A DNA stretch of 64,000 nucleotides from a virus, in IMG/VR virus record IMGVR_UViG_3300037423_000411, positions 32,001-96,000 of that record; one strand, written 5' to 3'. The notes under the pieces were generated by a model, which was given only the letters and a program-made list of their open reading frames with translations, was not told the DNA's origin and did not search any database. Each line of letters opens with the position of its first letter. Within the stretch, counting starts at the first letter, position 1. The translations under genes were made by a program, and so were the position numbers. Positions 1-51,899 of the stretch are shown in pieces.

Positions 1-92
1 GGGTCATCTTGGGTCTCGACGCAAGTTGGCTTCAGGGAAAAGTTGTGACCTCCTGAGCGGCTTCCTTCTGTGTGAAGCACAACCCGGCTGGC

Positions 93-347
93 TCAGGAGG
101 TGGTCCGGTGAATCGGGCAGTCAGGATCTGGCTGACAACGGCATTGTCGCTGTCTGCGCTGCTTCTTCTGCGTCTCGTAGTCCGCGAACGCTGCCGCTCC
201 GACGACTATCAGCAGTGTCCCTGTGAACAGCACCGCGATCGCCAGCGACCACCCTCCGAAGACGTACTCCAACCCGTTGAAGAGCCCGACACCGATCACG
301 ACGCTCACGGCACGAAACACCATCCGGCGTCTCATCGTGCTCATCAT
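93..347 (-). CDS. small membrane protein
   Basis: Two hydrophobic segments followed by a Cys-rich basic tail. Confidence 0.55.
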   Translation of the reverse strand: MMSTMRRRMVFRAVSVVIGVGLFNGLEYVFGGWSLAIAVLFTGTLLIVVGAAAFADYETQKKQRRQRQCRCQPDPDCPIHRTTS

Positions 348-364
348 GACCGTTGAATCGACCC

Positions 365-688
365 TCAGTAGTCCAGCTCGTAGCCTGCTGCTCGTAACAG
401 TGGCCCTACAGCGTTCACGATGTCCAGCGGGCCAGTCGTAGAGCTGTTCCAGACACTCGCCACTTCGTCCATCATGTCCTGCAGCATGTAGCGTCCCAGC
501 GCGTGCTTCTGCTCCTTGTTCAGCGCCATGACGGCTTTGTGATTGCCACGCTCGAACACGTTCAGCACCGTCGCTCCCGAATCGTCGTCATCGGCGAACG
601 GGGTGAACATCAGCTCCTTGTTGCTCAGCAGCGAGCGCAGAACCAGTCCGTCCTCGTCCAGCTGAACCTGCGGCAGTGTCTCCTGCAT
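365..688 (-). CDS. hypothetical protein (early-type leader)
   Basis: AAGGAG SD, CTCTCAC hairpin at 703-718 and TTGACA promoter at 751-756. Confidence 0.75.
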   Translation of the reverse strand: MQETLPQVQLDEDGLVLRSLLSNKELMFTPFADDDDSGATVLNVFERGNHKAVMALNKEQKHALGRYMLQDMMDEVASVWNSSTTGPLDIVNAVGPLLRAAGYELDY

Positions 689-727
689 GATCTGTCTCCT
701 TCAGCGGTGAGAGTCGCTTACAGGGAC

Positions 728-759
728 AGAATGCCAGTCAAGGTTACAGCTGTCAACCC
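728..759 (-). promoter_or_regulatory. SigA-type promoter with palindromic -35 region (representative of about 16 copies)
   Basis: TTGACA-N17-CATTCT, with GGTTGACAGCTGTAACC imperfect palindrome. Confidence 0.75.
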
Positions 760-1234
760 TCAGACAGGCGCGAGCCCCTGAACGCGGCAGGCACGCTAGA
801 ACACGTCAGGGGCTCGGCGAAGGAAACCTTATCGGGTCCCTGACCGGTTGCAACAACCGGTCTGTCCGACTTTCGTGTTCCAACCTCACGATCGTACAAA
901 CCCGCAGGTCAGGAGCTTGTAACGACCACCGAAGCGGTTCTGACCCACAAGTAACCAGCCAGTATCGACCGATTCTTGCAGACGCTTGCTACACGCTCAC
1001 GATCGACGGTTCTTCGCCCACGGCTCACGCTTCAAGGCCTCGTAGTAGACCGTCCTCCCGAGCGCGTGTACACGTCCCAGCCGCATCTGATGCCGATAGT
1101 GGTACCACGAGTCCCGAGCCTTCTCCCAACGACTCATGCCTGCCTCCTCCATGTACCGCTACCTCGCGTCATAGGTGCGAGATCGTAGCAACCCCCCAAC
1201 CTAACCGGTCACAGTTCTGTCTCGACTACCGAGC

Positions 1235-1363
1235 ATGGACGAAGAACTCAGCCCCGAACTGCAAGAGGTCGCTGACCTGCTCTGGGAAGCAGCACACGGC
1301 GCTCCACCGCTCGTTGAGGACAAGGTCTGGTGGATGGCTGTGCGTCGAGGCTTGGGAGCGTGA
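1235..1363 (+). CDS. small hypothetical protein (42 aa, rare plus-strand ORF)
   Basis: MDEELSPELQEVADLLWEAAHGAPPLVEDKVWWMAVRRGLGA; protein-like composition; below the ORF-track cutoff. Confidence 0.45.
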   Translation: MDEELSPELQEVADLLWEAAHGAPPLVEDKVWWMAVRRGLGA

Positions 1364-1366
1364 GAA

Positions 1367-1765
1367 CACCCTCTGAGCGACGTCCTATGAGTTGTGTAAG
1401 GAGGCTGGCTCAGAGGGTGCTTGAGGCGAGTCGAGGCGTCTATGGAAGACACTGTTCGGTTGGACTCGCCCCCTCAGACGTGGCGACGGATTTATGTGCC
1501 TAGTCGGCGTATTGGCCTCGCCTGAGGTCTGACGGACCTGAGCGCGAAAGTTTGGCTTCCCGTACGGTATGGCTCAGGCCCTGCTTGAGCTCCCTTCAGG
1601 CAATGGATCTATGGTCCTCGCTTGGCGACTGGCCCGAAGGGAAGTTCTGTCCTCGCTGCGGGGAAAACCTGGTGCCCCGTCAACGCATCACTCATGGCAG
1701 CGAGGAAGCTTGGTTCCCGCAGACGAAAAACATCCTGGGTATCGGCAGGACTTGGTCTGCGGGAA
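1367..1765 (-). ncRNA. TIGR-like stem-loop guide array, 7 units
   Basis: Units at 1367-1419, 1425-1470, 1472-1527, 1537-1578, 1591-1642, 1651-1705 and 1714-1765; each is a unique inverted-repeat stem enclosing CCA-N~9-(YG)-Nx-(C)CA-N9-11. Confidence 0.8.
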
Positions 1766-1769
1766 GTCT

Positions 1770-2099
1770 CTAGTGCGTCTTACCCCACTGACGCAGCTTC
1801 TCAAGCATCGTAGGGTGTGTCAGCACGTCGTGCACGTAGGTCGCCTTCAGGTGCAGCCTCTCGGACTCAGGCAGGTTCCCCAGCCCTGGCATCCCCGGCG
1901 CGATCTCCTGCTCGAAGTACTTGCGCGCCAGCTCCTTGTCCACCGCAAGCGCACCGAGCGCAGCTTGCGTCGTCCCGTAGTGCACGCCCTTGTTGAACGC
2001 CCACATCCAGCACTCGCGCATCTCTTCGCCGAACGTGTCCTGCCGATCGAACTGCTGCTTGGCCTCTTCCTCCATCTCGAAGAACTCGTCCAGGTTCAC
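1770..2099 (-). CDS. hypothetical protein
   Basis: GGAGG SD; stop lies immediately before the 7-unit array. Confidence 0.7.
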   Translation of the reverse strand: MNLDEFFEMEEEAKQQFDRQDTFGEEMRECWMWAFNKGVHYGTTQAALGALAVDKELARKYFEQEIAPGMPGLGNLPESERLHLKATYVHDVLTHPTMLEKLRQWGKTH

Positions 2100-3068
2100 C
2101 TGTTACCTCCTCTCCCACGCGTTGGTCGCGAAGCAGTCGGCACACGGCTTGGCCTGCGTACAGTACGGCAACGGCAGCATGATGAGGAACAGCCTGACGA
2201 GCACGTAGACCTTGCCTCGGTACGTGATCATGCCAACCCCTTCCTACGCCGGTTGTGCAGCTCCGCGATCGCGTACGCACGTGCCTTGTCCTGCCCCATC
2301 CCGATGCTGACGTAGCCGTCCTTGTAGTCCTTCCCCCAGCCGAGCGCGATGCACTCGTTCAGCGTCAGGTCCGCAGGATCGATCTCTGTCATCGCTCACC
2401 CCCGTCAGGCTCGGTCTTGTCTTGCACACGCGCTCGTAGCGTCTGTACGACGTACCTAGCGCCTTTCGGCAGTGCGTTAGGCCCGAAAGTTCTTTCCCGA
2501 GGCTGTATATCAAAATGCCTCTGGAGACGATCACGCAAACGGCCCTCTCCCGAAGCGTCAGAGGTCACTTCATGCCTGGTCATGTCAGCTCTTCTCCTTC
2601 CGTGCTCTACGTGCCTGCAGGTACTTCGTGATCCCTTGCCCTCGGTGCTTGAACTGCCAGGCGCAATACAGCGTCATCAGCGACGCGAGGTTGAACCCTA
2701 CGAAGTTCATCGGGTGATCGGGGAAGTACCTCGGCCCTACCGTGAACGCACCCTGTATCAGCGCTCCGACCGTCGCCATGACCCCGTAGAGGATTCTCAT
2801 CGGTACCTCCACTTGCACAGCACGATCGTCGGCCGCTTCAGGCACATGTCTTCCACCGGCTTGTACGGCTCCCACGACAGACCTCCCAACCACGCAGGCC
2901 TGCCACCCAGCATCCGCGTGCCCTTCGGAAGTACACCCCACGTCCGCGACCACTTCGTACCGAGCACCGTGATCGCGTGACCCCCTACGAACCGACTGTG
3001 CTTCTTGATCCGTACCGGGAGGCGTTTCTGTCCTGGTTTCAGGCTCTCCTGCCACAGCTTCAGCCTTG

Positions 3069-3662
3069 TCACCATGTACACGCCCCCCACATTCCCAGAC
3101 TGTCCTTGTCGGCCTTGCTCTGCGCGTCTCTGTAGGCCTGCTGCTGCGCGTAGGGCTTGTCGTAGGTGTACTCCTTCGCATACCCCCACTGAACCGCCCA
3201 TAGACCCCAGTCCATGCCTCCGCTGATGTCTCCCGGCCGGAACAAGATGTAGGCCAGCGTCCGCCCGTACTTGTCGACCGGAGCTTGTGACGTGTCCTGC
3301 ACGATCTGGATTGCCTCGTCGTGCGGCATCAGGCGCTCGGCTTCGGCCTTCGCTCGATCGGCGTAGCACTCGGCAGGATGCCTGCCTCTGGCAAGTTCCG
3401 GTGTGTCGATACCGATCTGACGAATCGTGATCACGCCTCGGCCTTCACAGTTCGCCTTCACCGTGTCTCCGTCGATGACACGATCTACCAGACAGTTCTT
3501 CCTGCGTGGCGGGCTGACCTTCTTCTGTCCCGGCGTAGTGCGCGAGTTGTGCGCTGCTTCTTGTGCAGGATCCGACCGCAGTGCGGTCATGATGGTTGTC
3601 GCCAGCAACGACCCCACCAAGAGACCTACCGAACCTGCCAGAGACCACTTCGGAACACTCAC
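3069..3662 (-). CDS. thermonuclease (staphylococcal nuclease-like) with N-terminal hydrophobic segment
   Basis: RVIDGDT, IRQIGIDTPE and DKYGRTLAYI motifs; GTG start at 3662 inferred. Confidence 0.88.
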   Translation of the reverse strand: MSVPKWSLAGSVGLLVGSLLATTIMTALRSDPAQEAAHNSRTTPGQKKVSPPRRKNCLVDRVIDGDTVKANCEGRGVITIRQIGIDTPELARGRHPAECYADRAKAEAERLMPHDEAIQIVQDTSQAPVDKYGRTLAYILFRPGDISGGMDWGLWAVQWGYAKEYTYDKPYAQQQAYRDAQSKADKDSLGMWGACTW

Positions 3663-4056
3663 GTCTTGTCTCCTGACAAGATCCTGAAGCGCGTTGTGTA
3701 GGCGATCCTGCCATCTTTCAGGTCCTCGATCTCGACCCCTGCCATGACCTTGTCGAGCACGGTTTCCCACGCAGGAGTCAGCTGTGAACGATCGATGTCG
3801 GCAGAGCACACGGCAAGCATCGTGAACGCGATTGCCGCCTCGTAGTTCGTGAGCGTGATCTGATCCTTGCTCATTCACGTGTTCCTGTTCCGTAGCTCTC
3901 GGACATTCAGCGTGTGCTTCGCCAGCGCCAGTTCGTCAGACAGGTCCTTGAAGCGCTCAGCGGCACTCAGAACCACTTTCTCCGCACGTGTGCGCTGTGC
4001 CTGCAACGACACGATCTTGCGTGCCAGAGCAGCGTCTGAGAGCTTCTCGTAGTCGG

Positions 4057-4248
4057 TCACAGCTGCACCGGCTTGATCGTGTCTTCGCGCTCACTGCCGA
4101 CCCGCACCCAGTTCGCCTCGGGGAACCCGTCCACGTGGATGGCGTGGTGCTTGTACTCGTACGGCTGAATGACCCCAGCGTAGGTGCCTTCGTAGGTCTT
4201 GCCGTCCTCGGCCGTGAAGGTCACTCGCTGACCGTTGTGGAACGTCAT
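4057..4248 (-). CDS. small SH3/KOW-like beta protein
   Basis: FHNGQRVTFTAEDGKTYEG; GGAGG SD with early leader. Confidence 0.65.
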   Translation of the reverse strand: MTFHNGQRVTFTAEDGKTYEGTYAGVIQPYEYKHHAIHVDGFPEANWVRVGSEREDTIKPVQL

Positions 4249-4479
4249 TTCCGCCTCCGATGGGGTGAGAGTCCCGCTTACAGGTCCATAGTGCCGTATC
4301 AAGGTTACAGGTGTCAACCGATACACGCGCGAAGCCTCCGAGCGGAGGGTTATGGGTTCGTACCCTGCGGAGTGGCTCGGAGGCTTCTTCTGGCGGTTCC
4401 GCGTCCTTATCAAGACGGACGTAATCGGCACAACGTCCGGTCGCGGATCTCTTACCTAGCTGTCTGACCCAGGATCTGA

Positions 4480-5172
4480 TTACTTCGCGTGCCACCAACG
4501 GCCTTGTGACGTCCCGGTGCTCAGCAGGTACTCCCACTTGAACGACCCGTCAGGCAGTTGCTTGAGTCGCTTGTCGACCACGTGGCTACCGTCGATGGTG
4601 TCGGACTCGATCGGCTTCGGATGCAGCTTGTTCGGGCGCTTGGTGCTGTACTTCACGACCTTGCCCTCAAGCGTCATCGACTGGCCCTGAGAGGCGCTCT
4701 GCGAGGTCTTCGCCTGTGCCGAGGTGTGCTGACTCAGCTTCTCCTTCAAGGCCCTCTGTGCCTCACCCTGAGCCTGTGCGTCCGCACCTTCGTGTGCGGG
4801 GTTCAGCTGGTGCTCGGTGTGCAGCAGGGACGACGACTTGCCGGTGTCGTAGTTCTTCACTGCGAACGACCACTCGTGCTTCCCGCTCGCGTAACGCGTC
4901 AGCGTGCGGTCACGCACAATCCAGAGCTTCTTGCCGTTGCCTTTCACGACCGTGTCCCCGACAGCGAACTTCGGCTTGGGGTGCGCAGGGTTGCTCGGAT
5001 CGTAGGGCACGTTGTCCTGATACCCGCCCTGTGCTGCGTGACCTGGCTTGTGCGGCATACCAGGCGTACCTGTGCGCTCGTGCGCCGACACGTGTGTCCC
5101 GTCCTTCTTCGTGTAGGCCTTAACGTGCTCTACGGCACTCAGCGCGACCAGCCGGTCAACGTGTTCTCCCAT
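4480..5172 (-). CDS. hypothetical phage protein with HVKAYTKKDGTHVSAHER motif
   Basis: Long ORF; the N-terminal basic motif recurs in phage proteins; KOW-like KPKFAVGDTV. Confidence 0.7.
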   Translation of the reverse strand: MGEHVDRLVALSAVEHVKAYTKKDGTHVSAHERTGTPGMPHKPGHAAQGGYQDNVPYDPSNPAHPKPKFAVGDTVVKGNGKKLWIVRDRTLTRYASGKHEWSFAVKNYDTGKSSSLLHTEHQLNPAHEGADAQAQGEAQRALKEKLSQHTSAQAKTSQSASQGQSMTLEGKVVKYSTKRPNKLHPKPIESDTIDGSHVVDKRLKQLPDGSFKWEYLLSTGTSQGRWWHAK

Positions 5173-5200
5173 GGCTTGAGGATCGTCCTCCTATGACGAA

Positions 5201-5258
5201 TCCCGCTCCGAGCTTCGCGACATTGGGGATGACGCTTGTTGGATGGCTCGGAGCGGGA
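5201..5258 (-). ncRNA. solo TIGR-like unit
   Basis: 13-bp stem tcccgctccgagc/gctcggagcggga enclosing CCA-tccaacaag-CG-tcatcc-CCA-atgtcgcgaa. Confidence 0.7.
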
Positions 5259-5268
5259 CGATCTGGAT

Positions 5269-5523
5269 TCAGTTCAGCTTGGCGGTCTCGCGTGCGACGA
5301 TCTCGCCTGCCTTCTTCACGCCGTCCGCACGCTTCGCGAACTCGTGCACGTCGCCCCGAGTCTCGCTGGCCCAGTCGTTGACCAGATACTTGTTCCCTGT
5401 CAGTTCGACGTAGGGCTTCGGCATCGTCACCAGAACCGCGACGGTCTTGCCGTTGACGCTGAAGTGCTGCACGGTGCGCCCGTACTTGTCGCGAGTCTTG
5501 TACTGAGTGACGGTCGCGTTCAT
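5269..5523 (-). CDS. hypothetical early protein
   Basis: Promoter at 5592, CTCTCAC hairpin and GGAGG SD; ATG at 5523. Confidence 0.7.
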   Translation of the reverse strand: MNATVTQYKTRDKYGRTVQHFSVNGKTVAVLVTMPKPYVELTGNKYLVNDWASETRGDVHEFAKRADGVKKAGEIVARETAKLN

Positions 5524-5593
5524 TTGGTGCCTCCGAGGTGAGAGTCTCGATCTGCCCTTGCGAGTTCTATAGTGCCGTACTGGGTTACAGCTG

Positions 5594-6190
5594 TCAACCC
5601 TTCGAGGCGTATAACCAGCTGCCCCCGCTGTCGGCCTGCGTCTTGCCGGACAGAACATCGCTCACGGTTCCACGCACTCCCTTGGCAGGACCCTTCCAGC
5701 CATCGGCCTTGAAGATCTGACCCCACCGATCCACGAAGCAGTACACCGAGGACCCCAGAGCAGCGTCTGAACCCTCAGGTGTCAGTTCCTGCTGAACGAT
5801 GCGCTGGTACGTGCGGCCTCCCTTGCTCACGTAGAACCGGTGCTTGTAGGGCCACTTCTTGTCGGCGTCCTGATCGGTCAGGAACTGAGCCAACGCTTCG
5901 GCAGGATTGGCCTCGGCCCACGCCTTCTGCGTCTCCGCGTAGTGCTCGGGGTTGTTCTGCTCCAACGTCGTTGTGAACTGCGGGACGCCTGGCACGTGGT
6001 TCGGCACGAAGTCTTCCGGCTTCGGGGAACCGTACTGCCCATCGCTGCTACCTACGTGACCGATCTGCTCTTCGACCTTCTCGATGACGACGTAACTCGT
6101 GCCGTGCAACATCTCTTCTGCGATGGCGACCTTGGCGTCTTCGGTCAGGTGTGCGAGGACCTGCAGACCGTACTTCTCCAGCGTGTTCAT
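5594..6190 (-). CDS. hypothetical protein with conserved phage C-terminal domain
   Basis: SVYCFVDRWGQIFKADGWKGPAKGVRG resembles a motif common in small phage proteins; GAGGAGG SD. Confidence 0.7.
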   Translation of the reverse strand: MNTLEKYGLQVLAHLTEDAKVAIAEEMLHGTSYVVIEKVEEQIGHVGSSDGQYGSPKPEDFVPNHVPGVPQFTTTLEQNNPEHYAETQKAWAEANPAEALAQFLTDQDADKKWPYKHRFYVSKGGRTYQRIVQQELTPEGSDAALGSSVYCFVDRWGQIFKADGWKGPAKGVRGTVSDVLSGKTQADSGGSWLYASKG

Positions 6191-7101
6191 GATGTTTGCC
6201 TCCTCGTGAGAGAGATCTGATTCAGTACGCCTGAGCTTCGACGGCTGCTTTGACCAGCGTCTGCAGGGCCGCATCTACGATCTTCGGATCTGATCCCTTG
6301 GCGCCCGACAGGGCATACAGCGAACGACGCCCCAGGAACCCGTCAGAGCCCGCGTAGCGGTATTCCAAACCGAACTGTGCGGCGTAGTCGACCATTCCGA
6401 CAACCTCGTGCTGACGAACCGAGATCGTGACCACAACCGGCTTACCTTCGAAGGTGGCTACGTGCACGACTCTCATCGGTTCGCACGCTCTTCCTGAGCC
6501 TTGTGCAGTTCGGCCATCTTCTGCTGCAGCTGGTCGGTCATCGCGTCGCACGCGTTCTTGACCTCTTCGGCGGCCTTGGTCCAGGAGGCTTGCACATCCT
6601 GAGCAACCAGCTCCTGGTCGGCCTTTCGGCCACGAGCGGCCAGTTGAGCATCCGTCTCGGTCAACCGACGCCACCTGACGATGTCACGCCTGCGGTCGCT
6701 TGCTTTGCTCATGATTGCCTCTTTCGGGGTGAGAGACCCGTTGTTGCCCTGACTTCTTCAGGATGCCTCATTGGGTTACAGGTGTCAACCCTTAGACATG
6801 CTTGAATCGAGATCACCTGAGATTCGGTGTCTCGATCTGATGTTTCGGAGGCTTCGTCTCGCGGTGCCTGAAGTCGGTCTGTCCGTCTTGTGCGATGCGA
6901 TCTGATGTGCAAAGGCATGCCTAGAGGGGCTTGTCTGCCGACTGAATATGGCCTTGCACGAGCCTGTATGAAGTTGCCTTGAGTCCCCGCCTGTTCGGCC
7001 TTGATCTGCGGTACTTCTGAGCCTGAAAGTTGCCTCGGAAGGCTGTGGCGTCAGTTCTTTCGCGCTTGATCTGGCGTACTAAGTGCCCGACTGATCAGAA
7101 G

Positions 7102-7282
7102 CTTACCGCACGCGAGGTGATCCTGTGTAGAGGCGTCTCGTGTGGCGTGCGGTAAGTGCTCTGACCTGCAGGTTTGTCTCTCTCGCGTGGTGCATTGGTG
7201 TGTACGGAGGAGGTATGGCGAGAGGACGGATCTGAACTCACGCGGTGTGCATTGGGGTGTCTTGATCACGGATGGCGTGAGT
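7102..7282 (-). ncRNA. TIGR-like stem-loop guide array, 3 units
   Basis: Units 7102-7156, 7180-7224 and 7236-7282, each with its own stem and two CCA/ACA-anchored segments of about 9 nt. Confidence 0.72.
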
Positions 7283-8778
7283 GTGACTCGTTTTCTCTCA
7301 GAGTGACTCGTGAGGATCTCAGGAGGGGGTTTTTACGCTCAGCGGACCTTTCGGCCTCTCTTGTCCACATGCCTGCTTACTTCATGTGTGAACACTGCCT
7401 GATCGAGTTGAGCCTGATCTACCTGTGTGACCTTGAGGACTGGTTCGTGTCCTCTCTTCGCTACCAGCTTTGCGCCTAGTGCTAATCGTGCTTTGACTTG
7501 CTTGTGATAGTTCTCCGACTTCTTGTTCATCGTTGATTCCTTCCTGTGTGTTGACGGTTGTCACTCTCGTTTGAGTGAGAATGGCTTTTGGTAGTCACTT
7601 GATTATGAGAGTGACTGTCATGTTTTTCTCTACGGGTGTAGAGGGTTCGATCTGACTGCTTCGATGTTCGAGTTGATGAGTCGGCTGAGGTAGGTCCCTG
7701 CCTCCTGATACGAGTTTTCCCTGATGGCGAGCAAGAAACCCTGCAGCAGAGGGAGAGCTTCGTACGCGTTCAAGGTGGTGCGCAGTTGAAGCTGTACGGT
7801 GAGATCTACTGTCTGTTTCATCGTGAGGTGTGAGCACAGAGCGAGATCCTGTGCGGCGAGTGCCCAGCTGTAGTTCTCTTGAGGCATCCCCTGTGTAGCT
7901 GTCACTCCCCGAGCTTCCTTTCGAGATACTCCCTGAGCGTTGCTACCTGCCCTGCAGGGAGGTTCGGAGCGACTCTGTGCAGCCTGATCCAGTCGTAGTG
8001 CTGACCTGTCCTGATGATCGCGTGAGAGCCGCATGAGCAGTGTGCGCGTCTGAGATCTGTTCTCAGGATGTCGAGCCTGAGCAAGTTGTGCTCAAGTACG
8101 TGATCTGCTCGGTAGGGCTGCCTCATCTTCAGTACGTCCCTAGTGCGTCTTCGATGTCCTTGATGCCTTCGACCGTGTAGGTGGTGCCGTCAGCACAGAT
8201 CACCATCCAACGATCTGTGCTCTCGTAAATCGCCTTGTAGAACACTTGGCTTGTGAGATCCCACGAGTCGGTGAACCCGAGATCACTCAAGACTCTGCGC
8301 TGCTCAGGCGTGAAAGTGCTGTTGGACAGGCTCACTGCTTCTCCCACTGGTACGGGTAGGCATCGTGCATCATCCCCATGACGTCCTTGAAGCATCCACA
8401 GCACAAGTAGGCCGTGAGTGGGTGGAACGGGATATCGGTGGTCTCCTCGATCTTGTGAGCGGCTGGTGCGTTACAGCTGTTGCACCTCTCCTCACGCGCC
8501 CAGACAGGGAAAGGATGGTCTGCACGATCGTCGGTGATCATCTCGGGCTGCATGAGCTTGGCCCTGCTGATCAGGATGCTGTCGAGCAGAGGTGAGCCGG
8601 TGATGCTTGGCTTGGGTTGATCTGTCATCTCTGCAGCTCCCTGTTCGCCTTCTCCAGCGCTTTGTCGACCTGACTGAACCCACCCGCTTGTAACCCTCCA
8701 CAGCGACCACCAGAGCCCGTAGAAGCTGTCTGTAGTCCGCACCTGGTTCCCAGTCGTTGGTCATGCTCTACGTACGGC

Positions 8779-8808
8779 AAAACCCCCGAGGTTCGATCGG
8801 GGGTTTTG
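8779..8808. terminator. bidirectional intrinsic terminator
   Basis: aaaacccccga...tcgggggtttt inverted repeat with A/T tails. Confidence 0.75.
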
Positions 8809-8814
8809 AGATGG

Positions 8815-9051
8815 TCAGTACTTCGGCTGAACGGTGACAGTACGTCCTGCCTCACCGTTCGCGAACAGATCGGCCATGCCGTACTGGTCGGTCATGATCT
8901 CGTAGTGCAGTCCTGCGTTACGCGAAGGCGTGTACGCACGGATGAACTCTCCGGTGTAGGTATGCCCGTTGCCTGCGATGAACGCGACGCGAGCGCCCTT
9001 ACGGAAGCGCGGAGGCTTCGGACTGGTGCCTCGATGAGTGATGGTTGCCAT
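8815..9051 (-). CDS. small SH3-like protein, possible paralog of 4057-4248
   Basis: RFRKGARVAFIAGNGHTYTG aligns with FHNGQRVTFTAEDGKTYEG. Confidence 0.65.
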   Translation of the reverse strand: MATITHRGTSPKPPRFRKGARVAFIAGNGHTYTGEFIRAYTPSRNAGLHYEIMTDQYGMADLFANGEAGRTVTVQPKY

Positions 9052-10539
9052 GATCTGTCTCCTTTGAAGCGGTGAGAGTCACTTCTCGCAAGTGCTGTTG
9101 ATGATCGGGCCGTATTCCCACTTGGTGGTACCAGGGGTGTAGCGGTAGCCGTAGGTGGTCGTGGTGACTGTGTGACCGCCACTGGCCTTGCACGCGTTGT
9201 CGCTCTTGACCGCGAACACCACGCACACGCCGATCAGCGCGACACAGGCCACGATTCCTGCGATGAAGATCTTGGTGAACCAGTCCATTTTCCTGCCCCT
9301 AGCGGTGAGAGTCGCTGTCTTGCCCTTACCTCTCTATAGTGCCTGAGTAGTTGTCAACTGTCAACCCCCTACAGCCAACCAACTTCGGCCTCGTGAATGT
9401 CCAGCCAGCCGATGTACTCACCCTCGCGACTGAGGATGGTGAGGTTGCCTATCTGGTTCTTCACCAGACGTGCCTCAGGCTGTGCGTCCACGATCTCCTG
9501 TAGTGCCCTGATGAGTGCCTGAGGCTCACCGTAGAAGTACCTGTCAACAGGATCTCTCATACGGCCTCCTCACTCCTGATGACCTCGGCCTCCTTGATCT
9601 CGGACACCGAGGTAGGCAACCAATCTGTCTTCTGCGGGATGTTGGCGATAGCCCACCGACCGCCCGGCCGGTTCAGCTCTTCCTGCACCGACTGACCTGT
9701 CACCTCGACATCATCAGGCAGCACAAGCACGATGTCTGCAAACTCGACGCGCTGTGCTCGCACACGTAGCTTCACTTCAGTTCCACCCTCACATTGACCT
9801 GCCACACAATCGAGTCATCCTCGCGAGTGTGGTGCTGATATGCCTTCCCGTACACGTACACAAGCTGTTGTGAGTCGACCGCGAAGAATGCTTCGGCGGC
9901 CTGGTGCGCGTATGCCTCGATCTCGGATATCGACTGTCCGAGAGCCGCGAACTCGATGCTGTTGATGCTCATCATCAGAAACACCCGTTGTACTTCGCCA
10001 TGACAGCCGCGCGCTGATCAATCGAAAGAGGCGTCATGAAGTCGGCCACTACCTGTGCTCGTTGCATCGCGAGATCGGAGTACCAAGAACCGCCAGGCCC
10101 GTTGTAGGGCTTCCATTCGACCTCGACATTGTTGTCCTCGACTTGCACATGCAACGGGCCACCAGTGCCACAACCCTCAGTCGCGTACAGCAGGTCGATC
10201 GCATCCATGATCTCGCGTGCATTGTCAGGGAGATTGGTAGGTGCGCCGTACTCCTCTTTCCAGCATCCACAGCACATCAGTCAGGCAGCTTTCGGCTCTT
10301 GGCCTGCTGCCAGATCGCGGCAAGCCTCGACACGGTGTCCTGTGTGTCGCGCAGTCGGTCGTACTCCTCAGGCGTGAGCAGTGGCCTCGAATCGGCAAGG
10401 TCCATCACCGTGGCGAGTGCGTGTGCGTAGCTCCACAGCCCGCTCACAGCGAAGAGATCTGATTCCTTGATCACGAAGTACGTGCCTGGTGCGAGGATCT
10501 CACCATTCGCCTTCTTGACGACGTACTTCTCTTCGACTG

Positions 10540-11502
10540 CTACTTGATCGTCTGTTGACACAACGGACATGTTCCTGCCTCCTTCAGTGTCTCGTGTAGT
10601 TCCTGTTCGGCTTCCTGAATGTGGATCTCCAGGTCGTTGATCTCTCGTTCCTTCTCAGCCCTGAAAGCAACCTGTGCGTTGTACCGCTTCGCCCAGGACT
10701 CAACTTCGTTGATCTTGGCCTCGACCTCTTCAAGGTCTTGCATGTCCCCCGCAACCGACTTGAGGAGACTGGTCAGCTCATCGGCCTTGGCCTGAGCACT
10801 GACGATGAGACGCTGTGCGCTCGTGTAACGGCCTGAGAGGTCTTCAAGCTGAGTGATACGTGAGGAGGCGTCAATGGCCGCAGAAAGCAGCTCTCGTGCC
10901 TCCTCGACAGCCTTCTTGCGTGTGCCGAGATCGGCATACTCGGTCTTCACGCGAGTCACTGCCGCATCAGCGTCCTTGCGCCTGATACCTGCGAGCTTCA
11001 GCATCTCCTGTCGGCGCCTGTTGGCCTCTCTGGCGGCCTCGGCAAGCATGCTGACGTTGGTGAGATCGCCCAGCACCTTCGCGGTAGCTGAGCCTGTCTC
11101 TGCCAGCAACCAAGGGCTGTCGAACTGCGTGCTGAAGAACAGGTCAGGATCGCCCTCAGGCGTCTTCAAGACCTTCTGCACATCGGCAGGGACTGTGGTG
11201 CCGCACTTCGCGTACAGCTCACTGTGCCCGTGCTCGTTGACCAGCTTGTAAGAGCTGACACCCTTCCCACGCTCCAGCTCTACCGCTGTGCCGTCGCTGT
11301 ACGTCAGTCTGAGCTTGGCTGAGGTCTTTCCTTTGCTCACGTACCCAGGACTGATGCTGTTACGTGAGACGGCCTTCAGTGCCCTACCGAACGCGCTCTT
11401 GCCTGAGTTGGAGTGCCCAACGACCACAGTCAACTTGCCCAACGGGATCTTCACGTCGTACAAGGACTGGAAGCTCTCTACCGCAAGCTCGCTGATGGTC
11501 AT
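10540..11502 (-). CDS. SbcC/Rad50-like ATPase, N-terminal half
   Basis: SFQS...GHSNSGKS Walker A, Q-loop (FFSTQ), coiled coil and terminal CPLC zinc hook. Confidence 0.85.
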   Translation of the reverse strand: MTISELAVESFQSLYDVKIPLGKLTVVVGHSNSGKSAFGRALKAVSRNSISPGYVSKGKTSAKLRLTYSDGTAVELERGKGVSSYKLVNEHGHSELYAKCGTTVPADVQKVLKTPEGDPDLFFSTQFDSPWLLAETGSATAKVLGDLTNVSMLAEAAREANRRRQEMLKLAGIRRKDADAAVTRVKTEYADLGTRKKAVEEARELLSAAIDASSRITQLEDLSGRYTSAQRLIVSAQAKADELTSLLKSVAGDMQDLEEVEAKINEVESWAKRYNAQVAFRAEKEREINDLEIHIQEAEQELHETLKEAGTCPLCQQTIK

Positions 11503-11731
11503 GCTTTACGTACGGACTTCGAGCCTCAAATCGGCAGACAGTCCCAGTGCACGTACCCCTGCCACTTCTCATGGCGAGTGATCAGCTCACCTTCTTTGAC
11601 AGGGTGATCCCCTGCGTCACACCACGAATCGAACGGTGACGGGAACACCTCACGCCGGTGCCTCGGATGCATGTCATCGATGATGAGCAGATTGATCTTC
11701 TGGCCGTCCATGTTTCTGCCTCCTGAAATGA

Positions 11732-11793
11732 GTGTGAGGTCAGCTTCGGGACTTTATGGGTTTCGTTCCCTTGTCTGGAAGCTGACCTCACAC
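11732..11793 (-). ncRNA. solo TIGR-like unit
   Basis: Perfect 16-bp stem gtgtgaggtcagcttc enclosing CCA-gacaagggaa-CGAAACCCA-taaagtccc. Confidence 0.78.
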
Positions 11794-13064
11794 GGTGTTA
11801 CGGCACCCTACGACGAACCCACGGACTCGGCCAGACGACACCGAGCAGGTAGGACAGAGCCAGGAAGAACAACCCAGCACCGAGCAGGTTGAAGTGCGTC
11901 GAGACGTCCACTCCAAACGTGTAGAGGAAGAAACACACAGCCGCGAGGACTGCGGAAACCACGCCTGCCATGATTACCGCTTGGTCGGGGCAAACGACGG
12001 GAAGCTCTCGCCGCCTACCTCAGGGTTGGCGTCACGGAAGACGTAGCCGAGACCGTCCTCACCGCGTGCATCGATCAGCGCCTGCGCGTCTTCCTGAGCC
12101 TGCTTGGCCGCAGCTTCCGCGCCGTTGTCGGGGGTAGCCGTGGTGCCGTCCTGCACAGCAGCCTGCTCGGCCTGAGCTTCGGTCACGACTCCCTGATCGG
12201 TGGTCTCGGCCGTGCGAGTACCGGTCTGGTCAGCTTCGACCGTAGGTACGTCAGGTGCAGCAGGCGCCGAGTACGCCGGTTCCGCGTTGTCACGTGCCAT
12301 CTCAAAATCTCCTTGGTCTTCGACCATGACGGTGCGCCATGCTCTCACTGGATCGGCCCCTACTTGCTATGTATGGATCGCCCGTTTTCCTGTTCCCACG
12401 CCTTAAAACGACGCTTGTCGTGTAGAAAATTCTCCACGAACCGGGTACCGAGGCAACACCATTGACCAGCTTTCGCCCGGCAGGAAGGGCAGTCGACCTT
12501 CAAGGCAGGCTGATGCTCCAGTGTCCTCATCTTCACGAGCGCCTGCTCTGCCCACCGTGGCGGATCGATCAGAAAGGCCTTCCGCTTGCTCGACCACTCG
12601 ATGTTCAAGACAGTCTGCCGCTTCGCTGCCATCTCGCTGAGATCTGCAACCTCACGAGGCTTCAGCTCGATAGGATCGCCCTTCTTCACTTCTGCACCGT
12701 GTTCCGTATCGCCGCCACTCGTGCACTCCGTGTCTTCGTCTTACCGTTGTCACGCGGCATGTCCCGGTACTTCTCAGCCCAAGCCTCGAACCGTGTGCGC
12801 TCACCTTCGTGTTCCTCGATCGCCTGAACCAGGTGCAGAGGACAGTAGTTGCCGGACATCGCATCGATGATGAGCATGGAACGCGTACTGGCGGCCTTGA
12901 GTGCGAACTTCGCACGCTTCCCGCACCGGTAGGCATCCGCCTTCCTCGGGTCGCCTCGATCGGCCTTCTTCACCCAGCCTTTCTGAGCACAGCACTGCAC
13001 ATCACCCGTGACCTCTTTGACCCAAGGACTGGCGAGAATCATCTCCCGCCAGTCCTTGTACTCG

Positions 13065-13847
13065 TCACTTGACTGTCTGACCATCCGGCTCGTCCTTCAC
13101 TCCGTGCAAGCGCCGGGATTCCTTCCACAGGCCCTTGAGCATTTCCTTGGACATCACCCGCAACGCGTCCGCGTGCCGGTGCCCATCGTTCCACGGTGAG
13201 CCTGGCTGTGCGGGCTTGCCTGACGGCCCGCAACGCACGCAGGGGTTCACATGCAACTTGCCCTCGGTGTGTGCCTTGCGCTTGTCGTACACCTCACGAT
13301 TGCCGGAACGAAGCATGCTCTCGGCAATCAGATAGGCCCGCGTCTTCGCGGTGGTCGACCAGTTGGCCTTCACACCCTTCTTGCGTCGCATCGCGTTGCC
13401 TTCGGCGTCCACGTGCAAACCGCAGTAGGCCCACAGCTGCGAGACCGTGCGCGGCTGACCGGTGTTGCCGTTGATGTACGGGTCACCGATGACACCGAGC
13501 AGACGCGCGGCCTGCTTGTCGCCCAGGCCTTTGATGCTCTTCACGTACGGGCCGAGCTTGTCGTTCTTCATGCGCTTGGTGAGCTGCTTGATCGCGGAGT
13601 CTTCCAGCTCCTTGAGCCCGTCGACCATCTGCGTCATGTTGCGCACGTCAGGGTGATCTGCGGTCAATCCGAACCCACGCTCTTCACCGTCCGAGTCGAC
13701 GGCGGTACGCGTGAGCTGCCGCAACCGGTTCTCGTTGGCGAGCCGCAGCCCCTCGATGTCATCCAGGATGATGGACGACAGTGCCAGGAAGGGATCTGCG
13801 AACGTCGCGAATGCTACTTCCTGTGCTGCATCGACAGTGTCTGTCAT
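13065..13847 (-). CDS. Nop/IS110-related RNA-binding protein lacking a nuclease domain (TasA-like)
   Basis: Coiled coil (RLANENRL), SIKGLGDKQAARLLGVIGD, TVSQLWAYCGL, RRKKG...NW and HADALRVMSKEML motifs; no N-terminal DEDD RuvC; GGAGG SD before ATG 13847; adjacent guide array. Confidence 0.85.
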   Translation of the reverse strand: MTDTVDAAQEVAFATFADPFLALSSIILDDIEGLRLANENRLRQLTRTAVDSDGEERGFGLTADHPDVRNMTQMVDGLKELEDSAIKQLTKRMKNDKLGPYVKSIKGLGDKQAARLLGVIGDPYINGNTGQPRTVSQLWAYCGLHVDAEGNAMRRKKGVKANWSTTAKTRAYLIAESMLRSGNREVYDKRKAHTEGKLHVNPCVRCGPSGKPAQPGSPWNDGHRHADALRVMSKEMLKGLWKESRRLHGVKDEPDGQTVK

Positions 13848-13872
13848 TTGGGTGTGCCTCCTTCTTTGGTTG

Positions 13873-14089
13873 CCCTGAGCGCGGCGAAACCTGGGTATCA
13901 ATATCCTTTGGCTCAGGGAAGATTGTTGCCCAAGGCGATGAACTTTGAGTGCTGTGGGGAATTTGGCCTCGGGAGTTCTGGACTCAGCAGCGTGCACTCG
14001 ATGGGTGAGAGCAGATGTGTTGGCCGCTGAGAAGTTTGAGCGGGGCAGCTGACGAATACTCTTGGGCGATCCTCGGTTCCTGGTCAGCT
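13873..14089 (-). ncRNA. TIGR-like stem-loop guide array, 4 units, directly upstream of the TasA-like gene
   Basis: Units 13873-13918, 13929-13973, 13983-14031 and 14047-14089; period about 55-64 nt; e.g. ccctgagCCA-aaggatat-TGATACCCA-ggtttcgccgc-gctcaggg. Confidence 0.85.
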
Positions 14090-14094
14090 CAGAA

Positions 14095-14649: not shown

Positions 14650-14675
14650 TTCGTTTACCTCCTACAACGTTTTAA

Positions 14676-14728
14676 TTCCCGACAACAAAGGTCGTATGGG
14701 TAACCGAGAGGAGCTTGGTCGCCGGGAA
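14676..14728 (-). ncRNA. solo TIGR-like unit
   Basis: ttcccggcgaCCA-agctcctct-CGGTTACCCA-tacgaccttt-gttgtcgggaa. Confidence 0.78.
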
Positions 14729-23509: not shown

Positions 23510-23734
23510 CTTCCACTCCCACATCAACGAGCTGAGCATCATAAGGAAGCTTCAAGTCAGGAGCTACCAGAGGCTCGAACGCCACCACGGGAACCTGCAT
23601 CGTCACCCTGACAGCCCTAGCGTGCTTGGGCTTCTTCTGTGTGAACCCCACGACCTTCGCGCCAATCACTTCGTAGTCGTCCCAGATCGGTTCGATGTGC
23701 AGATACACGCTGACCGTTACGTAACCAGGCGCTG

Positions 23735-24997: not shown

Positions 24998-25092
24998 TCC
25001 CTTCGTCTGGTGAGAGGCGCGAAGAACCAGGGCTTACGCCGCCGTTGAATGGCCTCTCATCACACGTACGGACTTCGGAGACAAGATCTGCA

Positions 25093-25136
25093 CAGAGGCG
25101 AATGCCTTAGGGGTGACGCTCCTTGTATGGCCTCTG
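25093..25136 (-). ncRNA. solo TIGR-like unit (a degenerate second unit lies at 25011-25059)
   Basis: cagaggCCA-tacaaggag-CGTCACCCC-taaggcattc-gcctctg. Confidence 0.62.
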
Positions 25137-36641: not shown

Positions 36642-36710
36642 TTCTGCCTCCAGTGTGAGAGAGTCGGTGTTCGCTCCGACAAGAAGAACGGTATCGGAGG
36701 GGGTGACAAC

Positions 36711-36768
36711 TGTCAACCCCTGAGCGGGTGACACTGGGTGCCGAATTGCAATGGCTCAGGGGCTGACA
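36711..36768 (-). ncRNA. solo TIGR-like unit overlapping a -35 box
   Basis: tgtcagcccctgagCCA-ttgcaatt-CGGCACCCA-gtgtcaccc-gctcaggggttgaca. Confidence 0.75.
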
Positions 36769-36924
36769 GCAGAAACCCGCTTCGAAGTCCTCGACAGCAC
36801 GGGGTCTGTGCCGGGTGACATCTCTGCGGGTTCCTGGTGCCTGAGGCGCGTGCCCTACGCGTATGAGGAGACGCATCTAAGCGAACTCTTCGGGACAACT
36901 CTCCTCAGGAAACTGTGAACGAGG

Positions 36925-42132: not shown

Positions 42133-42193
42133 ACGAGTTTAGCTGAACGTAACCTCACTGGGTTTCGAAGGTGCGTGGGTTCAGCCGACTCGT
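42133..42193 (-). ncRNA. solo TIGR-like unit
   Basis: gagtcggctgaacCCA-cgcacctt-CGAAACCCA-gtgaggttac-gttcagctaaactc. Confidence 0.75.
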
Positions 42194-49517: not shown

Positions 49518-49521
49518 CAAG

Positions 49522-49571
49522 CGAGAGAGGCGCGGACTATTTGGTAGCCGTGCTCGATGTGGCCTCTCTCG
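49522..49571 (-). ncRNA. solo TIGR-like unit immediately upstream of the tRNA-like RNA
   Basis: cgagagaggCCA-catcgagca-CGGCTACCA-aatagtccgc-gcctctctcg. Confidence 0.75.
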
Positions 49572-51854: not shown

Positions 51855-51899
51855 CACGGCGCGACTACACTTGGGCATCCTCAACACAATGGCGCCGTG
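51855..51899 (-). ncRNA. solo TIGR-like unit
   Basis: cacggcgCCA-ttgtgttga-GGATGCCCA-agtgtagtc-gcgccgtg. Confidence 0.72.

What the first reader, a model, noticed from the sequence alone, without database searches (positions are those of the whole stretch)
1367..1765. Orphan 7-unit TIGR-like array 11 kb from the Tas-like gene
Seven consecutive hairpins (period about 47-65 nt) have unrelated stems but the same internal grammar, e.g. tcccttcgggCCA-gtcgccaag-CG-agga-CCA-tagatccat-TG-cctgaaggga. Conservation is structural, so ordinary repeat and CRISPR finders would probably miss it. The array starts 5 nt after the stop of ORF 1770-2099, suggesting co-transcription. One unit (1651-1705) has an expanded central loop.
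Basis: seen in the sequence. Interest (0 to 1): 0.85.

Follow-up and report, generated by a model that had tools for sequence, protein, structure and literature searches.

The report
Phage guide-RNA array far from Tas
Seven tandem hairpins in a soil phage genome are guide-RNA units of the recently described TIGR-Tas system, lying far from the phage's single Tas gene as the largest cluster of about forty such units scattered between its genes.

Summary
On the minus strand, window 1365-1765 carries seven consecutive hairpins. Their stems are unrelated, but each encloses the published tigRNA grammar: box C CCA, an 8-10 nt spacer, box D YG, a ~4-nt loop, CCA, a second 8-10 nt spacer, YG. A covariance model built only from units outside this region scores 5 of the 7 above all background. 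A strict grammar search finds 30 hits on the minus strand of the genome, 0 on the plus strand, and a mean of 0.36 in shuffles.

The 260-aa protein at 13068-13847 is a nuclease-less Tas (TasA-like). Its best structural matches are solved TasR and TasH.

The array is "orphan" only in lying 11.3 kb from tas. About 40-42 units sit at about 19 intergenic sites across 76 kb of this complete 133.7-kb phage, all co-oriented with the genes and often 3-9 nt after a stop codon. A second large phage (G035) shows the same dispersal.

No targets were found in the phage itself or in about 1 Mb of related phage DNA. Expression is untested.

It is a stem-loop TIGR array, a known kind, in an undescribed dispersed, snoRNA-like layout. 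Other first-stage notes of this scan had flagged the dispersal on this same genome.

The parts
1714..1765 (-). tigRNA unit 1: 11-bp stem, CCA - spacer A - CG - ATAC - CCA - spacer B - CG; CUU at the stem base; starts 4 nt after the stop of ORF 1770-2099
   Evidence: R2 25.0 bits
1650..1706 (-). tigRNA unit 2: 10-bp stem, expanded 11-nt central linker, CUU at the stem base
   Evidence: R2 only 12.5 bits
1590..1643 (-). tigRNA unit 3: 12-bp stem, canonical 9+9-nt spacers, loop CG-AGGA-CCA, box D UG, CUU at the stem base
   Evidence: R2 18.2 bits; strict grammar hit
1534..1581 (-). tigRNA unit 4: 10-bp stem, 8+8-nt spacers, GAAG tetraloop
   Evidence: R2 27.4 bits; strict grammar hit
1472..1527 (-). 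tigRNA unit 5: 13-bp stem with one A-A mismatch; box D' CU with box C' ACA (compensated U-A pair)
   Evidence: R2 13.6 bits, within background
1423..1472 (-). tigRNA unit 6: 10-bp stem, canonical 9+9-nt spacers
   Evidence: R2 21.7 bits; strict grammar hit
1365..1421 (-). tigRNA unit 7: 14-bp stem; box D' CA with box C' UCA (compensated A-U pair)
   Evidence: R2 24.8 bits
1770..2099 (-). 109-aa ORF of unknown function whose stop codon lies 4 nt before unit 1; strong codon-position GC periodicity
   Evidence: no Pfam or PHROG match
13068..13847 (-). tas gene: 260-aa nuclease-less Tas (coiled coil plus Nop-like domain), the only copy in the genome
13873..14089 (-). four tigRNA units directly upstream of tas (13873-13918, 13929-13973, 13983-14031, 14047-14089)
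14676..14728 (-). solo tigRNA unit one gene upstream of the tas-proximal array
48..101 (-). tigRNA unit, part of a 4-unit cluster that runs over the window's left edge
   Evidence: (24.4 bits with R2, not in its training set)
4331..4387 (-). solo tigRNA unit
5200..5259 (-). solo tigRNA unit
7102..7282 (-). three tigRNA units (7102-7156, 7180-7224, 7236-7282); two share a near-identical spacer B
11732..11793 (-). solo tigRNA unit with a 16-bp stem
25011..25136 (-). two tigRNA units (25011-25059, 25093-25136)
36709..36770 (-). solo tigRNA unit with a 17-bp stem and 8+8-nt spacers
42142..42185 (-). weaker candidate unit: an extra C before box C, otherwise full grammar
   Evidence: 15.4 bits with R1; sequence read
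49522..49571 (-). solo tigRNA unit ending 4 nt before a tRNA-like gene
51855..51899 (-). solo tigRNA unit

Best explanation
Window 1365-1765 (minus strand) is a seven-unit stem-loop TIGR array. Each hairpin encodes one dual-spacer guide RNA (tigRNA) for the phage's single nuclease-less Tas protein (TasA type, 13068-13847).

Inferred mechanism. The units are transcribed as part of the polycistronic minus-strand message, directly behind ORF 1770-2099. They are cut out near the stem bases by a host RNase. Each is then bound by a TasA dimer, with one protomer on the terminal box C/D pair and the other on the internal D'/C' pair. The RNP binds a 16-18-bp DNA site that reads 5'-spacer A + reverse complement of spacer B-3'. 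Because the protein has no nuclease domain, it blocks transcription or another DNA transaction rather than cutting.

The array is one of about 19 sites (about 40-42 units) spread through the operons of the left 84 kb of the genome, so guide supply is tied to operon expression.

Shown here: the RNA grammar and its statistical excess, strand bias, intergenic placement, the Tas fold, and co-occurrence of units with tas across phages. Inferred from published work on relatives: processing, RNP formation, DNA binding and repression. Unknown: the targets.
For: (1) Grammar. All seven units have a 5' CCA whose first C pairs with the 3' box-D G. They have two 8-10-nt spacers and a 3' CG or UG. The loop between spacers is 9 nt in 6 of 7. 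This matches box C = CCA, box D = UG and the 9-nt loop in PMC12045711 sec. 8 and the 2026 preprint sec. 7.

(2) Statistics.
- The leave-out model R2 scores 5 of 7 units above every background hit.
- The strict grammar gives 30 hits on the minus strand, 0 on the plus strand, and a shuffle mean of 0.36, max 2.
- MFE z = -6.46.

(3) Protein.
- phmmer against PDB finds TasR 9mty (E = 3.6e-14) and TasH (E = 6e-5).
- The AF2 model has pLDDT 88.5.
- Foldseek top hits are TasR (E = 3e-9, TMq 0.66) and TasH, then IS110-family recombinases.
- There is one copy in the genome.
- Homodimer model through the coiled coil: score 0.52 against a best control of 0.00. The mark was reached by 20 of 30 proteins solved as pairs of one chain and 1 of 23 solved as single chains. 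Runs agree in at least 91% of contacts, with partner pLDDT at least 81. Like complexes are solved, so the pass may come from memory.

(4) Co-occurrence. Model R1 finds units in 35 of 36 viral records that encode a Tas homologue and in Mycobacterium phage Pinto, right upstream of its Tas gene. It finds 0 units in three Tas-less phages of the same genus.

(5) Context. Units lie between crude gene calls, and 9 of 19 sites start within -1 to 9 nt of the end of the upstream co-oriented ORF. CUU occurs at the stem base in 11 of 40 units against 6.8% background, p = 5e-5, and in 3 of 7 here. Only 2 of 40 units are followed by a T run.

(6) Covariation. The internal D'/C' pair covaries in 4 units (CA..UCA twice, CU..ACA twice), two of them in this array. 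That parse was optimised for this pair.
Against: - There are no expression or processing data; no RNA run is listed.
- No target was found. Cognate spacer pairs match the phage's own 133.7-kb genome no better than mismatched A/B pairs, and there are 0 hits at 0 or 1 mismatch in about 1 Mb of related phage DNA.
- Two of the seven units (1478-1521, 1653-1703) score within background in the leave-out model. Only 4 of 7 pass the strict grammar.
- Spacer boundaries (8, 9 or 10 nt) were chosen by a scoring parse with some freedom.
- Stems were a selection criterion, so the 99.4% pairing is by construction.
- R2's training alignment was fitted with R1, which had seen the seven units.
- CUU is absent from 4 of the 7 units.
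Confidence: 0.85

Rival explanations
1. The hairpins are cis-acting TasA-binding or RNase sites that control cleavage, stability or translation of the polycistronic phage mRNAs. Their 'spacers' would be unconstrained filler, not guides for DNA.
For: The units sit inside operons, often 3-9 nt after a stop codon and shortly before the next ribosome-binding site. No DNA target was found. Spacer composition is near-uniform, 47-48% GC against 59.7% for the genome, as expected for sequence that only has to stay unpaired.
Against: Spacer length is held at 8-10 nt on both sides, with boxes in the exact published register. Relatives of this protein with stem-loop guides bind spacer-complementary DNA and repress transcription (bioRxiv 10.64898/2026.09.09.750476 sec. 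12; 10.64898/2026.08.11.744272 sec. 5). The two roles are not exclusive.
Confidence: 0.07
2. They are ordinary intergenic structural hairpins, such as intrinsic terminators or REP-like 3'-end protectors, unrelated to Tas.
For: They are GC-rich stems (68% GC) in intergenic gaps, co-oriented with transcription.
Against: Only 2 of 40 are followed by a T run, and the terminator scan of 1-3000 is at chance level (2 found against 1.7 expected). Terminators do not need a conserved 28-32-nt internal loop with CCA/YG boxes. Units co-occur with tas across 35 of 36 records and are absent from 3 Tas-less congeners.
Confidence: 0.03
3. They are small non-autonomous mobile hairpin elements spread by the 'transposase'-annotated protein. 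Dispersal would then reflect transposition rather than guide biology.
For: The protein matches PHROG 4285, labelled transposase (E = 4.9e-87), and is distantly related to IS110-family recombinases. Units are scattered. Four units share a near-identical 12-nt stem core (genome 8053, 22278, 31934, 68770).
Against: The protein has no DEDD/RuvC catalytic domain: the 260 aa comprise only a coiled coil plus a Nop-like domain. Most stems are unrelated, with 6 of 7 stem pairs changed on both sides. No target-site duplications or terminal repeats were seen. All units share one orientation with the genes.
Confidence: 0.03
4. The region is protein-coding, an intragenic array or a small gene.
For: Mechanical ORFs overlap it: 1569-2315 (+), 1552-1773 (+) and 1201-1452 (-). 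Intragenic tigRNAs are known in this clade.
Against: There is no codon-position GC periodicity across 1320-1740. The overlapping ORFs have no PHROG match; one was tested. The long plus-strand ORF runs antisense through a clearly coding minus-strand gene.
Confidence: 0.01

Closest known systems
Stem-loop TIGR arrays with TasA (Peromyscus leucopus gut contig PlTasA; Bifidobacterium longum BlTasA) - Faure et al. 2025, PMC12045711 sec. 9; Xu et al. 2026 preprint 10.64898/2026.09.09.750476; Guan et al. 2026 preprint 10.64898/2026.08.11.744272
   Same: Tandem hairpins with variable palindromic stems. Two 8-12-nt spacers flanked by box C (CCA) and box D (YG). A 9-nt inter-spacer loop, short linkers and CUU at some stem bases. 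A nuclease-less coiled-coil plus Nop protein. Relatives of this Tas carry intragenic units, as BlTasA does: in G001, units at 23938 and 24007 lie inside the tas match 23477-24370.
   Different: Described arrays lie upstream of, downstream of, flanking or inside tas. The systematic survey took at most 10 kb of flank. The PlTasA subarrays are separated by about 450 nt. Here the 7-unit array is 11.3 kb from tas, and units reach 37-38 kb away on both sides, as singles and small clusters between unrelated genes.
Dual-repeat TIGR arrays with TasR/TasH (TaTasR PDB 9mty, SpTasH)
   Same: The same box C/box D logic, pseudo-symmetric dual-spacer guide and dimeric Tas fold. These are the best structural matches.
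   Different: Those have conserved edge and loop repeats, 36-nt processed guides, nuclease domains and a Y/H processing loop. Here the stems replace the edge repeats, and the protein has no nuclease domain.
Box C/D sno/sRNAs with Nop5/Nop56-58
   Same: A hairpin-framed bipartite guide bound by a Nop-domain dimer. Genes are dispersed through the genome and often excised from longer transcripts.
   Different: There are no K-turn boxes (RUGAUGA/CUGA), and no L7Ae or fibrillarin partner was looked for or seen. The target of Tas systems is DNA, not rRNA. Archaeal Nop5 matches the model only weakly (E = 0.33).
IS110/IS621 bridge RNAs
   Same: A related RNA-binding domain (Foldseek E = 8e-4 to 3e-3) and a bispecific structured guide.
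   Different: Those have a single RNA per element and a DEDD recombinase domain, which is absent here.

Membership tests
Stem-loop TIGR array (tigRNA units) | Each unit holds two 8-12-nt spacers, each preceded by box C (CCA) and followed by box D (UG-like), with the box-D G paired to a box-C C | tested here: met
   All 7 units have a 5' CCA and a 3' CG or UG that closes the stem. The internal box C' is CCA in 5 of 7 and ACA or UCA in 2, each with a compensating D'. Box definitions were read in PMC12045711 sec. 8.
Stem-loop TIGR array (tigRNA units) | Variable but consistently palindromic flanks forming a stem in place of edge repeats | tested here: met
   Stems are 10-14 bp and unrelated in sequence. 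Six of 7 stem-proximal pairs change on both sides across 24 units (stems were a selection criterion).
Stem-loop TIGR array (tigRNA units) | Inter-spacer loop of about 9-10 nt (D' + linker + C'), or an extended loop in some units | tested here: met
   The loop is 9 nt in 6 of 7 units and 16 nt in unit 1650-1706. Genome-wide the linker is 4 nt in 25 of 40 units. The published mode is 9 nt.
Stem-loop TIGR array (tigRNA units) | Units repeated in tandem with short linkers | tested here: met
   Seven units with linkers of 7, 6, 8, 6, -1 and 1 nt. The published linker class is 0-9 nt.
Stem-loop TIGR array (tigRNA units) | A Tas (Nop-domain) gene next to the array | tested here: inconclusive
   One tas gene exists in the same genome but 11.3 kb away. 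A 4-unit array does abut it. Adjacency is not met for this array; genomic co-occurrence is.
Stem-loop TIGR array (tigRNA units) | CUU motif at the stem base (the reported processing boundary) | tested here: inconclusive
   Present in 3 of 7 units here. Genome-wide it is in 11 of 40 units against 6.8% background, p = 5e-5. It is enriched but not universal.
Stem-loop TIGR array (tigRNA units) | Transcribed and processed into unit-length RNAs that co-purify with Tas | not testable with these tools
   No RNA run is listed for this sequence.
Stem-loop TIGR array (tigRNA units) | Spacers direct binding to DNA complementary to spacer A on one strand and spacer B on the other | not testable with these tools
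   Only in-silico target searches were possible. There was no excess of matches in the phage genome or in related phage loci. The host is unknown.
TasA (nuclease-less Tas protein) | Coiled-coil dimerisation domain plus Nop-like RNA-binding domain, homologous to solved Tas proteins | tested here: met
   phmmer gives 9mty E = 3.6e-14 and TasH E = 6e-5. Foldseek gives TasR E = 3e-9, TMq 0.66. The homodimer model scores 0.52 against 0.00 for the best of 3 controls; 20 of 30 solved pairs and 1 of 23 single chains reached the mark; runs share at least 91% of contacts and partner pLDDT is at least 81; the pass may come from memory of solved Tas dimers.
TasA (nuclease-less Tas protein) | No HNH or RuvC domain | tested here: met
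   The protein is 260 aa and all helical elements are accounted for by the coiled coil and Nop domain. There is no Pfam hit. Alignment to TasR and TasH covers their non-nuclease part only.

The most novel reading that the evidence does not exclude
This phage, and at least one other large phage (G035), has given up the tas-linked array. Instead it distributes more than 40 tigRNAs snoRNA-style through its operons. Excising guides from polycistronic mRNAs would then both time the supply of each guide to the expression of its host operon and cut those mRNAs. A single TasA would be programmed with dozens of guides to silence host or rival-phage promoters in a temporal programme. It would be a natural link between clustered TIGR arrays and dispersed box C/D snoRNA genes.
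Probability: 0.3. Interest if true: 0.8.

Novelty: new variant of a known kind. Interest (0 to 1): 0.6.

Why it matters
TIGR-Tas systems were described in 2025, and their natural targets and biology remain open. Published surveys looked only within 10 kb of tas, and the founding paper contrasts "highly regular" tigRNA arrays with sparsely distributed snoRNAs.

A complete 133.7-kb phage genome with one TasA and about 40 guides at about 19 operon-embedded sites shows two things. Tas-centred searches undercount guides, and guide genes can be dispersed like snoRNA genes.

It also offers a large natural guide set (about 80 spacers) from a single genome. That makes host or target identification statistically tractable once candidate host genomes from the same soils are available.

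The same protein family is present in 83 cultured Mycobacterium phage records, usually annotated as transposase or hypothetical protein. Experiments are therefore feasible in a laboratory host.

Tried and rejected
**Self-targeting.** I searched 16-nt cores of spacer A and spacer B in both possible geometries, with gaps of 0-4 nt, against both strands of the 133.7-kb genome. Cognate pairs gave 0 hits at 0 mismatches, 1 hit at 1 mismatch (geometry 1, gap 2) and 2-6 hits at 2 mismatches per setting. Mismatched A/B pairs gave 2.4-3.2 hits at 2 mismatches, so there is no excess. One 2-mismatch hit of the unit at genome 23138 lies on the tas start codon (window 13834-13849). It is within chance expectation and I do not rely on it.

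**Targets in relatives.** There were 0 hits at 0 or 1 mismatch in 1.01 Mb of fetched loci.

**Geometry.** I derived 5'-A + rc(B)-3' from the published 8-nt 3' overhangs. The paper's two wordings of the cut side (5' or 3' of the paired nucleotide) disagree, but only this geometry gives 3' overhangs.

**Collection-wide target scan.** Not run. It would need a joined sequence to be typed, and an 18-mer is expected about 17 times by chance in the 596-Gb collection.

**Expression.** No RNA holder is listed.

**Natural variation.** Logan contigs of four soil or rhizosphere runs laid on 1000-2400 gave only short identical pieces (0 other letters) plus unrelated partial matches, so there was no variation to analyse.

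**Close relatives.** Megablast of window 1-16000 against 'phages' gave no match.

**Other scans.**
- Pfam gave nothing for Tas or its neighbours, apart from a 0.061 sub-threshold hit on ORF 14098-14649.
- Rfam (gathering thresholds) found only a tRNA at 49420-49517.
- ARAGORN found none.
- The promoter and terminator scan of 1-3000 was at chance.
- MAFFT alignment A4 of 17 units misaligned the 3' arms and was not used.
- The broad literature search returned only unrelated papers.

**Supplements.** The supplementary tables of Faure 2025 and the locus table and TIGRSafari of Xu 2026 were not seen. They may list this IMG/VR contig or its tas-proximal array.
Full report
**What is in the sequence**

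Read on the minus strand, window 1365-1765 is seven back-to-back hairpins. The inverted-repeat search finds all seven arm pairs: 8-14 nt, 85-100% complementary, 24-37 nt between the arms. Extended with G-U pairs, the stems are 10-14 bp.

The 411-nt stretch folds into exactly these seven hairpins. Its MFE is -179.1 kcal/mol, against -137.3 +/- 6.5 for dinucleotide shuffles (z = -6.46), and 0 of 100 shuffles fold as well. Tandem Repeats Finder finds nothing, so the similarity between units is not ordinary sequence repetition.

The stop codon of ORF 1770-2099 (TAG, 1772-1770) is followed by 4 nt and then the first stem. Linkers between stems are 7, 6, 8, 6, -1 and 1 nt. The region lacks the codon-position GC periodicity that is strong in ORF 1770-2099.

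**The unit grammar**

Every unit reads: stem, C-CA, 8-10 nt, (C/U/G)G, about 4 nt, CCA, 8-10 nt, (C/U)G, stem. The first C of the 5' CCA pairs with the last G.

Faure et al. 2025 define tigRNA box C as CCA and box D as UG, with the G paired to a C of box C, in both the edge and the loop element (PMC12045711, section 8, read). They describe stem-loop arrays as two 8-12-nt spacers flanked by these boxes inside variable palindromes (section 9). Xu et al. 2026 add three points: stems diverge even within one array, the inter-spacer loop is mostly 9 nt, and CUU marks the stem base (sections 7 and 11).

Here the loop D' + 4 nt + C' is 9 nt in 6 of 7 units. In two units of the array the internal pair is changed on both sides (CA..UCA in 1365-1421, CU..ACA in 1472-1527), and two more such cases occur elsewhere in the genome. 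My parse chose spacer lengths partly to maximise this pair, so these covariations are suggestive rather than independent. CUU lies at the stem base in 3 of the 7 units, and in 11 of 40 genome-wide against a 6.8% background (p = 5e-5).

**Is it more than chance?**

A covariance model of 24 window units (R1) separates them (18.1-37.4 bits) from everything else. The best other hit scores 15.4 bits and the best plus-strand hit 13.0. That is circular, so I built R2 from the 16 units lying outside 1-1800.

R2 scores the seven units 27.4, 25.0, 24.8, 21.7, 18.2, 13.6 and 12.5 bits. An eighth untrained unit (52-97) scores 24.4. The best background hit scores 15.3. Five of the seven are therefore independently recognised. 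The two that are not are the unit with an ACA box plus a stem mismatch and the unit with the long loop. Both sit in phase within the array. One caveat: R2's training alignment was fitted with R1.

A regular-expression version of the published grammar (CCA-N8-10-NG-N3-8-CCA-N8-10-YG closed by a stem of at least 6 bp) finds 30 sites on the minus strand of the whole genome and none on the plus strand. One hundred dinucleotide shuffles give a mean of 0.36 and a maximum of 2.

**The protein**

ORF 13068-13847 (minus strand, 260 aa, ATG preceded by AAGGAGG) has no Pfam match. It does match PHROG 4285, labelled "transposase" (E = 4.9e-87).

By sequence it hits solved TasR (9mty, E = 3.6e-14) and TasH (E = 6e-5). 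An AlphaFold2 model built from a 29-row alignment has mean pLDDT 88.5. Its best Foldseek matches are TasR (E = 3e-9, TMq 0.66), then eight TasH chains, then IS110-family recombinases. Archaeal Nop5 appears only weakly.

The model is two long helices plus a helical Nop-like domain, with no room for a nuclease domain, so it is a TasA-type protein. A homodimer through the two long helices is predicted:
- Score 0.52, against 0.00 for the best of 3 controls.
- The mark was reached by 20 of 30 proteins solved as pairs of one chain and by 1 of 23 solved as single chains.
- Runs agree in at least 91% of contacts, and partner pLDDT is at least 81.
- Tas dimers are solved, so the pass may reflect memory of them.

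The family is large: 1407 proteins at E <= 0.001 among 2280 candidates. It has invariant C203, C206, H223 and H225, plus W219, R230 and K234. The spacing W-4-H-7-R-4-K equals that of the box-C-contacting residues W295, H299, R306 and K310 reported for PlTasA. This is an inference from spacing only, because I did not have that sequence. tblastn finds a single tas copy in the genome.

**The array is not alone**

The window lies in a complete 133,696-bp virus record with direct terminal repeats. My hairpin scan first showed further units of the same grammar across the window. The genome-wide scan and the CM confirmed them.

I count 40 units, plus two more recognised later (genome 31943-31975 and window 42142-42185), and three degenerate or doubtful candidates. 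All lie on the minus strand between genome positions 7999 and 83899, at about 19 sites. Cluster sizes are 7 (this finding), 4 (abutting tas), 4, 4, 3, several pairs and nine singles.

By a crude GC3-based gene call, the units lie between minus-strand ORFs. Nine of the 19 sites begin within -1 to 9 nt of the end of the upstream co-oriented ORF, and several end 13-27 nt before the next ORF. Only 2 of 40 are followed by a T run. The promoter and terminator scan around the array is at chance. The natural inference is that units are parts of polycistronic transcripts. This is not shown.

Other first-stage notes on this genome had already proposed the dispersal. I had found it independently, and I tested it here.

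**Relatives**

R1 finds units in 35 of 36 IMG/VR records that encode a Tas homologue (27-62% identity). In most they cluster within a few kb of tas. I scanned three whole records with the strict grammar:
- G035 (145 kb, direct terminal repeats, Tas 46% identical) has 29 units spread from position 479 to 120911 on both strands.
- G001 (82.6 kb) has 10 around and inside tas and 7 elsewhere.
- G023 (130 kb) has 8 within about 4 kb of tas and 2 far away.

So dispersal is shared by at least one other large phage but is not the rule.

Among cultured phages, tblastn finds the protein (about 50% identity) in 91 records: 83 Mycobacterium, 5 Gordonia, and one each of Arthrobacter, Rhodococcus and Microcystis. 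In Mycobacterium phage Pinto the gene (gp70, "transposase") has one R1 hit just upstream. L5, D29 and Bxb1, of the same genus, have neither the protein nor any R1 hit.

**Targets**

From the published 8-nt 3' overhangs, the target must read 5'-spacer A + reverse complement of spacer B-3'. Cognate spacer pairs match the phage's own genome no better than mismatched pairs. They have no match at 0 or 1 mismatch in 1.01 Mb of related phage DNA.

Spacers are 47-48% GC, against 59.7% for the genome, 58% for other non-genic DNA and 68% for the stems. This fits either AT-richer targets such as promoters or a need to stay unpaired. The host is unknown: the sequence occurs in soil and rhizosphere metagenomes, seen only as identical short contigs.

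**Comparison with what is known, and novelty**

The array meets every sequence-level criterion of a stem-loop TIGR array, and the protein is a TasA. What differs is the layout. [quoted passage not shown] The PlTasA subarrays are about 450 nt apart. Xu et al. analysed at most 10 kb on each side of tas, with a median recovered length of 5.4 kb.

The words orphan, dispersed and scattered occur in neither paper. No paper in the library holds both "tigRNA" and "dispersed". I could not see the supplements or TIGRSafari.

I therefore rate the finding a new variant of a known kind. The molecule is ordinary for its family. The genome-wide, operon-embedded distribution is not described.

**Limits**

- The gene calls are crude.
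- CM E-values are rough.
- Spacer boundaries carry +/- 1 nt of uncertainty.

Noticed in passing
window 49420-49571 (-): A solo tigRNA unit (49522-49571) ends 4 nt before a tRNA-like gene. Rfam tRNA scores it 36.7 bits at 49420-49517, but ARAGORN does not call it. The adjacency suggests shared precursor processing.
   Followed up: no
window 13834-13849 (+): The composite target core of the unit at genome 23097-23138 matches the tas start-codon region with 2 mismatches in 16. This is within chance expectation (2.4 such hits per 40 guides), but it would mean autoregulation if real.
   Followed up: partly
window 13068-13847 (-), residues 203-234: The Tas family has invariant CxxC...HxH (C203, C206, H223, H225), which looks like a zinc knuckle inside the Nop-like domain. 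Neither paper section I read mentions it.
   Followed up: no
L057 (Mycobacterium phage Pinto, NC_024368.1) 43919-44757: The cluster-A mycobacteriophage gene annotated 'transposase' (gp70) is a TasA homologue (52% identity) with one tigRNA-like unit in the 334-nt gap upstream. It sits beside the immunity repressor and superinfection-immunity genes. In all, 83 Mycobacterium phage records carry the protein under various labels.
   Followed up: partly
G035 (L037-L044), whole record: A 145-kb phage with direct terminal repeats and a 46%-identical Tas has 29 strict-grammar units dispersed on both strands from 479 to 120911. It is a second case of genome-wide dispersal.
   Followed up: partly
G001 (L046) 23477-24370: Two strict-grammar units (23938, 24007) lie inside the tas coding range of this 82.6-kb phage. 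This matches the published intragenic tigRNAs. Long low-complexity insertions in many homologues (alignment A3, columns 280-372 and the N-terminal extensions) may have the same origin.
   Followed up: no
window 7180-7281 (-): Two adjacent units have nearly the same spacer B (ATGCACCA / ATGCACAC) but different stems and different spacer A. This hints at unit duplication followed by divergence, or at related targets.
   Followed up: no
genome 8053, 22278, 31934, 68770 (window 36770 for the last): Four distant units share a near-identical 12-nt stem core (AACCCC(C)TGAGC / GCTCAGGGGGTT) with unrelated spacers. Four window units share CCTGAGC/GCTCAGG next to the boxes, which fits the published 'conserved stem core'.
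   Followed up: no
window 1226-1369 (-): A 47-codon GTG ORF directly after the last unit shows codon-position GC periodicity (spread 0.33-0.40). It may be a small gene whose start overlaps the 3' arm of unit 7. The tested overlapping ORFs gave no PHROG match.
   Followed up: partly
window 760-830 (-): A 10-bp GC-rich hairpin (GAGCCCCTGA / TCAGGGGCTC) with a 24-nt loop lies downstream of the array. It lacks the CCA/YG grammar, so it is a different element.
   Followed up: no
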